A stretch of 64,000 nucleotides of DNA from a virus (Duplodnaviria; Heunggongvirae; Uroviricota; Caudoviricetes): IMG/VR virus record IMGVR_UViG_2913112809_000002; one strand, written 5' to 3'. Shown here piece after piece: positions 39,001-43,474 of the stretch (position 1 is its first letter; every line of letters begins with the position of its first letter). The position numbers were made by a program.

Positions 39001-42000
39001 GACAAAGCAGAAGTCGAACGGTGGGTGCGACTGCATGAAATAGGTGACTTTCGGGCAGAAATAACACCGCTTTATACAGCCCAACCAGCGCCGGTAGCTC
39101 CAGATGGTTGGATAAGCTGTAGTGATGCAGTTCCTGCGGAATACTGCGATGTGATTCTTCGCGATGATCTCGGGAATGTATTCCCCGGTTCCTGGGATAA
39201 GGTTTTTTGCCCCATTCGTGGCGGGAATAAGATGGCTTTTGTGGACAAAGACGGCATCGAAGTAGAGAGCTCAACTCACTGGATGCCGCTACCGGAACCA
39301 CCGCAGGAGGTGAATCGATGACCTGGCCTGAAGCATTCACAACGGTAGGAATTGCAATGGCGGTGGCGCTGGTGGTGTATTCGATTTGCCGCTGGGGTTG
39401 ACGTAATTACTAATCCGGGGCTATATTTCCGACGCGCCAGCAAAATCTGGCGTCGGGATTAGCACCCCGGATGTTTACGGAGCGATATGAGACGCGCCCG
39501 CGTCTTTTTTTCATATCGTTTGCACAGTCACATTCGCGATTTATGGCGGGCTGTGTGGGGGAGCCGAAAGGCTCGCCGGTTTCCGTACCCGGTAGTGCTA
39601 ACCCCGCACAGTTCGCCACCACGATGATTAGCACCTGACGGTGGCGATAATGTCCAAATGTACGGAGTAATCGTTATGACCACTCAGATTTCTGTCGAAA
39701 CTCTTTCCCCAATTACACACAACCAAATTCCCGTTATCACTACCGAGTTACTGGCACAGCTTTACTGTACCGAGATCAACAACATCAAAGTAAATTACAC
39801 CCGTAATTCCGAGCGTTTTGTTGAGGGTAAACACTTTTTCAAGATTGTTGGTGATGAGTTGAAAAAATTTGCGGGTTACTTTAAGTAACTCACAAACGCC
39901 TGTTTCCCCCAAAACCCGCTCCCTCATCCTCTGGACAGAACGCGGAGCAGCCCGCCACGCAAAAATGCTGGAAACCGAGCAGGCGTGGGAAGTGTTCGAA
40001 AAACTGGAAGACTGTTATTTCAGTCAGAAACGCCCGGAAGAAAAAGCACCGGATTTTATGCCACGCCGCTTTCTTCTCACTCTGGTCAATAACCAGTGGT
40101 ATGTTGAGCCTGTGTCTGCTGATGCGTTTGTGGCAACGCCGGACTCACTGGTGGCCAGGCTTCAGGCCGAGAGATATCTGTTCGATCAGCAGAGCATAAA
40201 GGAGATCATCCAGACCTGCCTGAAGATGATTTAAAAATTCATTCCGATATGGGAATCCCCATATCGGGAGAATATTACCACCGGGGATAAAATGATTTGC
40301 GGTGAAAGGGAAGTTAAGTAGAATTGCTGCGGGTGCTTGAGGCTATCTGCCTCGGGCATGAATACCAACGGCAGATAGAGAAAAGCCCCAGTTAACATTA
40401 CGCGTCCTGCAAGACGCTTAACATTAATCTGAGGCCATATCTATGCGACACATAGAGATTAGCCTCTTACGGACCGAAAGGTCAAGGAGAAGCAGGCTAT
40501 GAAGCAGCAAAAGGCGATGTTAATCGCCCTGATCGTCATCTGTTTAACCGTCATAGTGACGGCACTGGTAACGAGGAAAGACCTCTGCGAGGTACGAATC
40601 CGAACCGGCCAGACGGAGGTCGCTGTCTTCACAGCTTACGAACCTGAGGAGTAAGAGTGACCAGGCGAGGGAGAAATCCCTCGCCGCCTCTGACGTGTCA
40701 GGCATTCTCAAAGCACCCGCACTTAACCCGCTTCGGCGGGTTTTGTTTTTTTCTGGCATTCTGGTTTACAATCCACTCGTCAGCCTGAACAACTGACACC
40801 TGCTGCGCCAGCAGAGAAAACCGATGGCGCAAAATTCCAGACCACACAATTCTGATAATTCAGCCGTCTTTGCCAGCAGGCACGGGCGGCGTTCCCGCAC
40901 ATTCAAATCTGACTGGTTCCAGCACGACCCATGCACTGAAGAACAAGCCGAATGGCTAATTCAGAACTACCGCAGACGTGGGTATGAGTTTCAGAAAGAC
41001 CTCAGTCTTGACTTCCGACACTGGATAATCTCAGTCAGGCTGCCGTACTCCGAGCGCCCACCGCGTCCATCCCGCACATTCCAGCAACGGATCTGGAGGT
41101 AATGTGAGAGCATTACTGACACCTGAAATTGCCCCGCGTATGGGGATCGTACTGTTCAGGCCAGGTTCAGAGCTGATGCCATTGTTTATGCAGGGGCGTG
41201 TCTTGCTGGAGCCTGAGCCGGAACGTTATTCATCTTTTGCCAGTGGTGTCGTTCCGGCGGCATCGCAACCGCTGGCGGATGATCCTGTCGTTCGGGCCGT
41301 ATTCCGCAATGAGGCAGTGATCCGTCGTGCAGGTGGCGTGGAATGCCTTGAAAGCTGGTTACTTCGTGAAAAAGGCTGTCAGTGGCCTCATTCTGACTGG
41401 CACAGCGAGAACATGACCACAATGCGTCACGCGCCGGGAGCAATCCGTTTGTGCTGGCACTGCGATAATCAACTGCGCGATCAGTTCACAGAACGGTTGG
41501 AATCAATGGCAACGGATAACTGCGTCCGTTGGGTGTTGTCTGTTGTCCGTCGGGATCTCGGTTTTGATGAAAGTCACGTTGTGACAATGCCGGAACTGTG
41601 TTGGTGGCTGGTTCGTAATGACCTGGCGGATGCCTTACCTGAAAGCGCAGCCCGTAGGCTCTGAGATTACCGAAGCCTGCTGTGCAGTCTGTCACTCGGG
41701 AAAGTGACCTCGTACCTTCAGTTCCGGCCACCAGCATCATCCAGGATAAAGCGAAAAAGGTGCTGGCGCTGAAAGTGGATCCGGAATCGCCGGAGTCTTT
41801 TATGTTACGCCCCAAACGTCGCCGCTGGGTTAACGAAAAGTACACGCGCTGGGTTAAGACACAGCCGTGTGCATGTTGTGGTAAGCCAGCCGACGATCCC
41901 CATCACCTGATTGGTCACGGTCAGGGAGGGATGGGGACAAAAGCCCACGATATTTTCACGCTACCGCTGTGCCGGGAGCATCACAACGAACTTCATGCTG

Positions 42001-43474
42001 ATCCGCTGGCATTTGAAGAAAAGCATGGTTCCCAGATTGATTTAATTTTTCGTTTTCTTGATCACGCCTTTGCAACCGGCGTGCTTGGGTAAAAGAGGTT
42101 ACTGATGCGTATAGAGTTTGTTTTGCCTTACCCGCCGACGGTGAACACCTACTGGCGACGTCGTGGCAGCATATATTTTGTATCAAAAGCCGGTGAGCGT
42201 TATCGCCGTGATGTGGCGCTTATTGTTCGTCAGCAGCGGCTGAAATTAAACCTGTCCGGAAGGCTGGCGATAAAGATTATTGCAGAGCCACCGGATAAGC
42301 GCCGTCGTGACCTGGACAATATTCTGAAAGCTCCACTGGATGCGCTGACGCATGCCGGACTACTCATAGACGACGAGCAGTTTGATGAAATCAATATTGT
42401 GCGCGGTCAGCTCGTTCCTGGTGGGCGGCTGGGGATAAAAATCACAGAACTGGAGTGCGCATGAATAACCAGTATTTACAGTTTGTTCGTGAGCAACTCA
42501 TGATTGCCACCGCCGATTTGAGTGGAGCAACAAAAGGACAGCTTGAGGCCTGGCAGGAGAATGCCATGCTTGAAACAGGGCGTTACAGGCGTAAAAAAAT
42601 CCGGTACCGCGATGAAGTGACCGGAAAAATGATAACGCGGGATAATCCACCAATCCCGGGAAAACAATCGCTTGCGAAAGGTTCGTCAATTCCTCTGGTA
42701 AGTCAGGTTGAGTTTTCGACATCATCATGGCGACGGGCAGTTCTGTCTCTTGAAGAACATCATAAAGCCTGGTTGTTGTGGTGTTACAGCGGCAGCATTT
42801 GCTGGGAACACCAGATCGCGATAACGCAGTGGGTGTGGAATGAATTTAACGCACAATCCGGTACCAGAAAAATTGCAGGGAAAACGCTGGAGCGCCTGAA
42901 AAAATTAATCTGGCTGGCGGCACAGGATGTCAGAGGATGGATTACCGGGCGTGAGGTCTACCAGCGACAGGAACTTGCCAGGCTGTGTGGAATTAAACCT
43001 GACAACTGGAGCCATAATTATGCGAACTACTGGCGTGAGATGTGCGACATTTTTAAGAATCTTGATACAGAATCCTTGATTTGCACAGTGAAAATGAGAA
43101 CGCAACAAAAAGCGACCTTTTCGCGACGAGATGTTGCAAAAATCAATTAAATCGCGTACATTTCGTGTAAATTTGATATTTTGCCGATTTTATACGCGAT
43201 GGCAAAGCAAGCAAAACCCGCCGCCGAGCGGGTTTTTTTATGTCCGCAAAATGGCGTGGAAGAAAAAATTAATCAGATTGTAACTGAGATAAAAAACAAT
43301 CGTTAAATATGCATTTAATAATTTCTTTATTTCATAAAAAATAAAAACATATACGTATATTTACAAATCTTGATATGATTTTCCATTGAAAAGAGAGCTG
43401 GTATTATTAATATCGGTCCCCGGTTCCGAAGGGGATGTAAGCGCGGTCATTTTTATTTCTCTTGAGGAACCAAT

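What the first reader, a model, noticed from the sequence alone, without database searches (positions are those of the whole stretch)
41104..42092. Two adjacent ORFs that may be halves of one DUF968/HNH-like gene
The 186-aa and 136-aa ORFs upstream of rusA are in different frames separated by 18 nt. The second has a Cys/His nuclease-like motif. In related Qin-type prophages I recall a single larger DUF968 gene in this position, so this may be another frameshifted gene.
Basis: inference. Interest (0 to 1): 0.3.

Follow-up and report, generated by a model that had tools for sequence, protein, structure and literature searches.

The report
Frameshifted prophage DUF968 nuclease gene
The two neighbouring reading frames are the two halves of one ordinary prophage gene (a YdfU/DUF968-type putative HNH nuclease) that has lost a single base, so this is a routine broken gene or a sequencing slip, not a new kind of element.

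Summary
ORF 41104-41664 (186 aa) and ORF 41682-42092 (136 aa) lie in different frames, 17 nt apart, just upstream of rusA and Q. Aligned with intact 990-bp DUF968 genes of E. coli prophages, the 989-bp window stretch is co-linear end to end except for one missing A (Lys185 codon AAG; window 41656/41657), which creates TGA at 41662-41664. Putting the base back gives a 329-aa protein 97.6% identical to an intact homologue, one continuous Pfam DUF968 match (268 bits) and an end-to-end match to PHROG 96 'HNH endonuclease'. A single 329-330-aa gene is the norm in Escherichia, Shigella, Salmonella, Citrobacter, Phytobacter and Kosakonia, and in 104 of 110 IMG/VR and genome loci examined. dN/dS of both halves is about 0.05, as between intact alleles, so the break is very young. 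The deleted allele was found in no other public sequence; both fragments occur only on the source contig (GCA_004745255.1, PDHY01000019.1). There is no slippery site for programmed frameshifting. I cannot tell a real mutation from an assembly error without reads; a second indel frameshift lies 1.8 kb upstream in an ORF6N gene. This is an ordinary finding of low interest.

The parts
41104..42092 (+). Whole DUF968/YdfU-family gene (989 bp, one base short of the 990-bp intact gene); a frameshifted pseudogene in the sequence as given
   Evidence: Alignment A1 with the intact genes L001:2501-3490 and L002:2501-3490 has one gap column. The repaired translation is 329 aa, matches Pfam DUF968 2-171/171 at 268 bits and PHROG 96 at 1-333/334, E 1.7e-175.
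41095..41106 (+). Ribosome-binding site GGAGG (41095-41099) and GTG start (41104-41106). The stop codon TAA of the upstream 92-aa ORF (41100-41102) lies between them.
   Evidence: Read directly from the sequence. RefSeq uses the same GTG start for the intact homologues.
41104..41664 (+). 5' fragment: 184 native residues (N-terminal Cys/His domain with C92, H96, H100, C117, C120, plus the first ~25 positions of the DUF968 model) followed by 2 out-of-frame residues (R, L) and a stop
   Evidence: Invariant columns come from alignment A2. This exact 186-aa product is on record on only one contig.
41656..41657 (+). Site of the 1-nt deletion: intact CGT-AAG-GCA (Arg184-Lys185-Ala186) reads CGT-AG-GCT here; one A of the AA pair is missing
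   Evidence: Gap at column 553 of alignment A1. The site is bracketed by the last stop in the downstream frame (TAG 41655-41657) and the first stop in the upstream frame (TGA 41662-41664).
41662..41664 (+). Premature TGA stop created by the frameshift
41658..42092 (+). 3' fragment in the native downstream frame (Ala186 to Gly329 and stop). It holds the linker and the conserved His-Me finger/HNH-like core (C-x2-C, HH, C-x2-HH-x3-H). The longest mechanical ORF starts at GTG 41682.
   Evidence: Pfam DUF968 37-171/171, 223.9 bits. All invariant Cys/His columns of A2 (C256, C259, H268, C290, H294, H298) are present in the window translation.
41792..41804 (+). Possible internal start: GGAG (41792-41795), a 6-nt spacer, then ATG 41802-41804. 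It would give a 96-aa product starting MLRPKRRRW.
   Evidence: Read from the sequence. The public gene call on the source contig uses this start (L003 3699-3989, 96 aa). That 96-aa product is on record on only that contig. Whether it is translated is an inference.
42105..42464 (+). rusA (Holliday-junction resolvase), intact, with its own AAGAGG ribosome-binding site. Context only.
   Evidence: Pfam RusA E 1.4e-15; NCBIfam PRK09786 E 1.8e-24
42455..43150 (+). Late-gene antiterminator Q, intact. Context only.
   Evidence: Pfam Phage_antiter_Q 1-217/220, E 2e-84

Best explanation
41104-42092 is one gene of the nin-like region of a lambdoid prophage, in the order hok, 92-aa ORF, DUF968, rusA, Q. 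It belongs to the enterobacterial YdfU/DUF968 family. The intact protein has 329 aa and two domains: an N-terminal Cys/His domain of unknown role and a C-terminal His-Me finger (HNH-type) putative nuclease domain. In this sequence one A of the Lys185 codon is missing. Translation from the normal GTG therefore ends two codons later, giving a 186-aa N-domain fragment without the nuclease core. The gene is inactivated, a very recent frameshift pseudogene private to this strain or assembly. Shown here: the co-linearity, the single gap, the restored domain, the rarity of the allele and the absence of relaxed selection. Inferred: loss of function, the nuclease activity of the intact protein, and little polar effect on rusA and Q, which have their own ribosome-binding sites and sit in an antiterminated operon. 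That the two ORFs are halves of one gene in this sequence I put at about 0.97. That the deletion is a real mutation rather than an assembly error I put at about 0.7, and that is the confidence given here.
For: One gap in a 990-column alignment with two intact annotated genes. The repaired protein is 322/330 identical to the STEC309 homologue, with 52 synonymous and 8 non-synonymous codon differences. dN/dS is 0.046 and 0.034 for the two halves against STEC309, and 0.055 and 0.054 against AR_0372, compared with 0.033 between the two intact alleles. The Pfam DUF968 model is split 2-27 / 37-171 across the two ORFs and is continuous after repair. PHROG 96 matches end to end. Full-length 329-330-aa homologues dominate 1669 hits in six genera and align without gaps at the junction. 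104 of 110 complete loci hold a full-length frame. A 25-mer specific for the deletion has 0 matches in GTDB species genomes, IMG/VR and JGI metagenomes, whereas the intact 26-mer has at least 120 matches in IMG/VR and 2 in the GTDB species genomes. The exact 186-aa and 96-aa products occur on one contig only. The deleted base lies in an AA dinucleotide, not a long homopolymer. The large phage genes in the window (641-aa terminase, 533-aa portal, 785-aa tape measure) are uninterrupted, so the assembly is not grossly indel-ridden.
Against: No reads are available, so a consensus error cannot be excluded. A second single-base indel frameshift, one extra A in an A-run, lies 1.8 kb upstream in an ORF6N gene. 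That fits either decay of the prophage or an indel-prone sequencing chemistry. The absence of any excess of non-synonymous change is what an artefact would also give. Nuclease activity of this family has not been shown experimentally in the papers I read (PMC5714182, PMC4118853). My structural test against solved HNH folds was inconclusive.
Confidence: 0.7

Rival explanations
1. Assembly or sequencing error: the strain really has the intact 990-bp gene, and the missing A is a consensus error in the draft assembly GCA_004745255.1.
For: The allele is unique to one contig in all collections searched. dN/dS is indistinguishable from that of intact genes. Another 1-nt indel, in a homopolymer A-run, breaks an ORF6N gene 1.8 kb away, and that error type is typical of some sequencing platforms.
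Against: The deletion is in a dinucleotide, not a homopolymer run. Long genes elsewhere in the window are intact. About 5% of related loci also carry disrupted copies (6 of 110; one of two copies in S. flexneri SFBU0723), so real disruption of this gene is common.
Confidence: 0.25
2. Functional gene fission: the frameshift leaves two working proteins, a stand-alone N-terminal Cys/His domain (186 aa) and a small stand-alone HNH-like protein (96 aa from ATG 41802, or 136 aa from GTG 41682) comparable to YbcO/DUF1364 and to ~110-aa phage DUF968 proteins.
For: GGAG lies 6 nt upstream of ATG 41802, and a gene caller accepted this start. The break falls in a predicted low-confidence linker (pLDDT below 50 at 194-243), upstream of the catalytic core at 256-298. 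Stand-alone DUF968 proteins of 107-156 aa exist in phages (BFVD, E 3.4e-6). PHROGs 11007, 1588 and 23141 are short families that match only one half. YbcO is 96 aa.
Against: The split is seen in one assembly only, so there is no sign that selection maintains it. The GGAG-ATG is equally present in intact homologues, so it is not a new start signal. Full-coverage relatives of the N-domain are mostly 320-370 aa, and none ends near residue 186. The short PHROGs may themselves be fragments.
Confidence: 0.05
3. Programmed -1 ribosomal frameshift or transcriptional slippage restores a full-length protein from the sequence as it stands.
For: The two frames overlap in an open window at 41658-41661, and a rare AGG codon sits just before the stop.
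Against: There is no X-XXY-YYZ slippery heptamer (the sequence is C-CGT-AGG-CTC-TGA) and no long A/T run for polymerase slippage. The usable window is only about two codons. Homologues encode the protein in one frame, so the arrangement is not conserved.
Confidence: 0.01

Closest known systems
YdfU of the E. coli K-12 Qin prophage and its 329-330-aa enterobacterial prophage homologues (Pfam PF06147 DUF968; PHROG 96 'HNH endonuclease')
   Same: Same family, same length after repair, and the same position upstream of rusA and Q. Identity to E. coli, Shigella and E. albertii proteins is 92-98%, and 67-82% to those of Salmonella, Citrobacter, Phytobacter and Kosakonia.
   Different: Here the reading frame is broken by a 1-nt deletion at codon 185, so only the N-terminal 184 native residues are made from the normal start.
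YbcO of the DLP12 prophage (Pfam DUF1364, PDB 3g27), placed with DUF968 in group 7 of the His-Me finger superfamily in PMC5714182
   Same: Small Cys/His ββα-metal type core. YbcO is the only solved structure that the family profile finds (3g27, E 0.12, over H..G..G.GTK..DL....C..CHDE). It is also encoded in nin regions next to rusA and Q (PMC5714182; L004 shows a DUF1364 gene in that context).
   Different: YbcO is a 96-aa single-domain protein, and the similarity to it is weak (hhalign probability 24%). The gene here encodes an extra ~185-aa N-terminal domain that has no Pfam family.
Gram-positive phage DUF968 proteins such as phiETA Orf20 (Orf-like N-domain fused to an HNH motif; PMC4118853)
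   Same: Same Pfam family for the C-terminal zinc-finger/HNH part, and the same link to recombination and replication modules.
   Different: In those proteins the N-terminal domain is reported to be Orf/NinB-like. I found no NinB/Orf match for the N-domain here (Pfam; BFVD NinB hit at E 0.33). A separate NinB gene is present elsewhere in the window (26117-26527).
Frameshifted prophage pseudogenes in general (RefSeq 'frameshifted' CDS)
   Same: A single-base indel, a premature stop, and neighbours left intact. For example, a 'frameshifted' methyltransferase sits next to the intact DUF968 gene in STEC309, and the ORF6N gene in this window is broken in the same way.
   Different: Nothing notable.

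Membership tests
Pfam PF06147 DUF968 (YdfU family) | Score above the Pfam gathering threshold (27.8 bits) with coverage of the whole model | tested here: met
   ORF2 alone scores 223.9 bits over profile 37-171. ORF1 contributes profile 2-27 at 24.5 bits. The repaired protein scores 268.4 bits over profile 2-171/171.
Pfam PF06147 DUF968 (YdfU family) | A single uninterrupted reading frame of about 329 aa, as in homologues | tested here: not met
   A 1-nt deletion at 41656/41657 produces a stop at 41662-41664. It is a disrupted member (pseudogene) in the sequence as given.
Pfam PF06147 DUF968 (YdfU family) | Position in the nin-type region of a lambdoid prophage, next to rusA and Q | tested here: met
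   RusA at 42105-42464 and Q at 42455-43150. E. coli prophages and PPompW phages show the same order, as described in PMC5714182.
His-Me finger (HNH / ββα-metal) nuclease superfamily | Conserved Cys and His residues of the zinc-binding and catalytic core | tested here: met
   C256, C259, H267/H268, C290, H293/H294 and H298 are invariant or nearly invariant in 26 homologues. All are present in the window's downstream frame (CACCGKPADDPHH...LCREHHNELH).
His-Me finger (HNH / ββα-metal) nuclease superfamily | Significant sequence or structure match to an established HNH family or solved HNH fold | tested here: inconclusive
   HNHc_6 scores 24.2 bits, below its 26.6 cutoff. Profile against the PDB finds only YbcO 3g27, at E 0.12. 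hhalign against a DUF1364 protein gives probability 24%. Foldseek against the PDB has no hit with E below 1, only weak Cap5 and Cascade-HNH hits. The AF2 model has mean pLDDT 68. PHROG HNH families 131, 7370 and 22514 match at E 4e-6 to 2e-4. The published classification places DUF968 in the superfamily (PMC5714182).
His-Me finger (HNH / ββα-metal) nuclease superfamily | Metal-dependent nuclease activity | not testable with these tools
   The papers found report no biochemical data for YdfU-type proteins.
Programmed ribosomal frameshift genes | A slippery site in the overlap and conservation of the two-frame arrangement among homologues | tested here: not met
   There is no slippery heptamer in 41650-41664. 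The overlap window is 41658-41661 only. Homologues are in one frame.

The most novel reading that the evidence does not exclude
The single-base deletion has in effect split a two-domain YdfU-type protein at its flexible linker into two independently translated products: a 186-aa Cys/His N-domain, and a 96-aa YbcO-sized HNH protein made from the internal GGAG-ATG at 41792-41804. This would be a snapshot of how stand-alone DUF968/DUF1364 mini-nucleases and larger fusions interconvert in phage nin regions.
Probability: 0.05. Interest if true: 0.3.

Novelty: already known. Interest (0 to 1): 0.1.

Why it matters
It matters mainly for annotation. The two ORFs should be recorded as one frameshifted DUF968/YdfU-family pseudogene, or as one intact gene if the reads restore the base, rather than as two hypothetical proteins. 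Together with the second frameshift nearby, it is a small marker either of decay in this prophage's early region or of indel errors in the draft assembly. It opens no new biological question. The only mildly interesting by-product is that the family's N-terminal domain has its own invariant Cys/His set and no known function.

Tried and rejected
1. Same deletion elsewhere. An exact-pattern scan for the deleted junction found nothing in GTDB species genomes, IMG/VR or JGI metagenomes. The intact junction served as a positive control.
2. Structure route to function. An AlphaFold2 model of an intact homologue built from 26 sequences reached only pLDDT 68 / pTM 0.44. Foldseek against the PDB gave no hit with E below 1. 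BFVD returned only other uncharacterised DUF968 proteins.
3. Sequence route. phmmer against the PDB found nothing meaningful. The profile search found only YbcO, at E 0.12. hhalign against a DUF1364 protein gave 24% probability. NCBIfam has no model for the protein.
4. Programmed frameshifting was considered and rejected. There is no slippery site, the overlap is about two codons, and the arrangement is not conserved.
5. Two separate genes as the natural state was rejected. Relatives that cover the whole N-domain are mostly 320-370 aa, and none ends near residue 186.
6. Host organism. I did not establish it. The window is identical to part of GCA_004745255.1 contig PDHY01000019.1, and no complete E. 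coli genome covers this region at more than 94% identity. The tools could not give the species name.
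Full report
**Observation.** The ORF listing and the raw sequence confirm two plus-strand ORFs.
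- ORF1 is 41104-41664: GTG start, 186 aa, stop TGA at 41662-41664.
- ORF2 is 41682-42092: GTG start, 136 aa.

Downstream lie an intact rusA (42105-42464, Pfam RusA E 1.4e-15) and the antiterminator Q (42455-43150, Pfam Phage_antiter_Q E 2e-84). Upstream lie a hok toxin gene (40499-40654, HOK_GEF E 1.2e-23) and a 92-aa ORF (40824-41102, phrog_1212). ORF2 matches Pfam DUF968 at profile positions 37-171 of 171 (223.9 bits). The last 26 residues of ORF1 match positions 2-27 of the same model. One domain is therefore cut in two at the frame change.

**What it is.** megablast against 5,426 complete E. coli genomes found the stretch 41104-42480 at 90-94% identity. In each listed hit it lies under a single annotated 'DUF968 domain-containing protein' followed by RusA and Q. 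In strains STEC309 and AR_0372 that gene is 990 bp, or 329 aa.
- MAFFT alignment of the 989 window bases with these two genes is co-linear from the shared GTG to the shared TAA, with exactly one gap column. Intact CGT-AAG-GCA reads CGT-AG-GCT in the window.
- The missing base is one A of the Lys185 codon, at window 41656/41657.
- The position is independently bracketed. The last stop in the downstream frame is TAG 41655-41657, and the first stop in the upstream frame is TGA 41662-41664.
- Re-inserting the A gives a 329-aa protein identical to the STEC309 protein at 322 of 330 positions, counting the stop.
- The repaired protein gives a single DUF968 match covering profile 2-171 (268.4 bits) and an end-to-end match to PHROG 96 'HNH endonuclease' (1-333 of 334, E 1.7e-175).

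**Is one gene the norm?** Yes.
The full-coverage ones are 329-330 aa in Escherichia, Shigella, Salmonella, Citrobacter, Phytobacter and Kosakonia, and some clusters hold thousands of members.
- Twenty-six diverse homologues align with no gap at the junction, and the motif E-S-A-A-R-K-A-L-R-L-P is conserved.
- An exhaustive HMMER search with ORF1 alone found a small family of 198 representative clusters. Proteins covering the whole N-domain are mostly 320-370 aa, and none ends near residue 186.
- The intact junction 26-mer occurs in at least 120 IMG/VR contigs and twice in a Shigella flexneri genome. Of the 110 such loci not cut by a contig end, 104 carry a full 329/330-aa frame.
- Phage GenBank records annotate one 'ydfU' between rem and rusA/Q.

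**How old, and how widespread?** Nei-Gojobori dN/dS of the repaired gene against the intact alleles is as follows.

| Comparison | N half | C half |
|---|---|---|
| Window (repaired) vs STEC309 | 0.046 | 0.034 |
| Window (repaired) vs AR_0372 | 0.055 | 0.054 |

The value between the two intact alleles, over the whole gene, is 0.033. No relaxation of constraint is detectable, so the break is very recent on the scale of allele divergence, or it is not real.

A 25-mer specific for the deleted junction has no match in GTDB species-representative genomes, IMG/VR or JGI metagenomes. The exact 186-aa product and the 96-aa product called from the 3' part are each on record on a single contig, PDHY01000019.1 of GCA_004745255.1. 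That contig is identical to the window over the 6.5 kb fetched, so it is the window's source.

**Real mutation or artefact?** This cannot be decided without reads.
- For a real mutation: the deletion is in a dinucleotide rather than a homopolymer. The large phage genes of the window are uninterrupted. Independent disruptions of this gene are not rare (6 of 110 loci, including one of two copies in S. flexneri).
- For an artefact: the allele is private, selection looks unrelaxed, and a second single-base indel lies 1.8 kb upstream. There an ORF6N-domain gene (39658-39888 plus 39869-40234) has one extra A in an A-run relative to the intact 558-bp gene of E. coli 2014C-3061.

I put real against artefact at roughly 70:25.

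**How the intact gene probably works (inference).**
- The family alignment shows two conserved Cys/His blocks. The first is C92, H96, H100, C117, C120 in the N-domain. The second is C256, C259, H267/268, C290, H293/294, H298 in the C-terminal part.
- The second block is the DUF968 core. A published survey places it, together with DUF1364/YbcO (PDB 3g27), in group 7 of the His-Me finger (HNH) nuclease superfamily, and notes the RusA/Q neighbourhood (PMC5714182). Another paper describes DUF968 as a zinc-finger HNH motif fused to recombination proteins (PMC4118853).
- My own tests agree only weakly. The family profile finds YbcO as its sole PDB hit, but at E 0.12. hhalign gives 24% probability. 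HNHc_6 is just below its threshold. Foldseek of a moderate AlphaFold2 model (pLDDT 68) finds nothing significant in the PDB. In BFVD it finds only stand-alone ~110-aa DUF968 phage proteins (E 3.4e-6).
- The most likely role is a DNA nuclease or DNA-binding protein acting with the recombination and replication functions of the nin region.
- The frameshift falls at residue 185, in a poorly predicted linker upstream of the core. The normal start (GGAGG at 41095-41099, GTG at 41104) now yields only the N-domain.

**Alternatives.**
- Programmed frameshifting is rejected. A -1 shift would have to occur within 41658-41661, there is no slippery heptamer or long homopolymer there, and homologues are in one frame.
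- A functional fission is not excluded. GGAG lies 6 nt upstream of ATG 41802, and the resulting 96-aa product has the size of YbcO and of the stand-alone phage DUF968 proteins. However, the same GGAG-ATG exists in intact genes, and the split is unique to this assembly. I give it about 5%.

**Comparison and verdict.** This is a disrupted member of a known family (YdfU/DUF968) in its usual genomic place: an ordinary prophage pseudogene or a consensus error. Novelty is 'already known' and interest is low (0.1).

Noticed in passing
window 39658-40234 (+), indel at about 39855-39866: A second frameshifted gene lies 1.8 kb upstream. An ORF6N-domain gene is split into 76-aa and 121-aa ORFs by one extra base in a G-AAAAAA run, relative to the intact 558-bp gene of E. 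coli 2014C-3061. The 3' third of the gene is mosaic and matches a different E. coli prophage (PSJ-22).
   Followed up: yes
window 1-64000; hinge at about 29480-32936: The window holds two late-gene modules diverging from one immunity region. On the minus strand, running from 29480 down to 1, are O, a DnaB-like helicase, NinB, NinX, NinG, a phosphatase, a PF03589-type Q, tRNA-Asn/Thr, lysis genes, terminase and baseplate genes. On the plus strand are a cI-like repressor (30488-31195), N (32517-32936) and early-left genes. These run without any O/P genes straight into hok, DUF968, rusA, a PF06323-type Q, tRNA-Thr/Gly, lysis genes, terminase, portal and tail genes. This looks like two prophages joined or rearranged (for example by inversion or recombination) rather than one canonical lambdoid map.
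   Followed up: partly
window 41104-41661 (residues 55-190 of the protein): The N-terminal domain of the YdfU-type protein has no Pfam or NCBIfam family but carries its own invariant C92-Q-W-x-H96...H100...C117-W-H-C120-D set. It sits on a confidently predicted β-hairpin plus helix (pLDDT 80-93), so it may be a second zinc-binding or ββα-type module. The domain family is small (198 representative clusters) and is almost always fused to the DUF968 core.
   Followed up: partly
L127 and L126 (Shigella flexneri SFBU0723, CP182557.1); L008, L018, L024, L067, L117 (IMG/VR): Independent disruptions of the same gene occur elsewhere. One of two copies in the S. flexneri genome and five IMG/VR loci have shortened reading frames (open frames of 225-283 codons instead of about 339), even though they carry the intact junction sequence.
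   Followed up: no
window 43475-43628 (+) and 22853-23008 (-): Each Q gene is followed by a pair of phage-borne tRNA genes: Thr(TGT)+Gly(TCC) on the plus side and Thr(TGT)+Asn(GTT) on the minus side. This resembles the tRNA clusters downstream of Q in Stx-type lambdoid phages. No toxin gene was looked for.
   Followed up: no
window 40499-40654 (+): An intact 51-aa Hok/Gef-family toxin ORF (Pfam E 1.2e-23) lies two genes upstream of the DUF968 gene, as with hokD in Qin. Its antisense Sok-type RNA was not examined.
   Followed up: no
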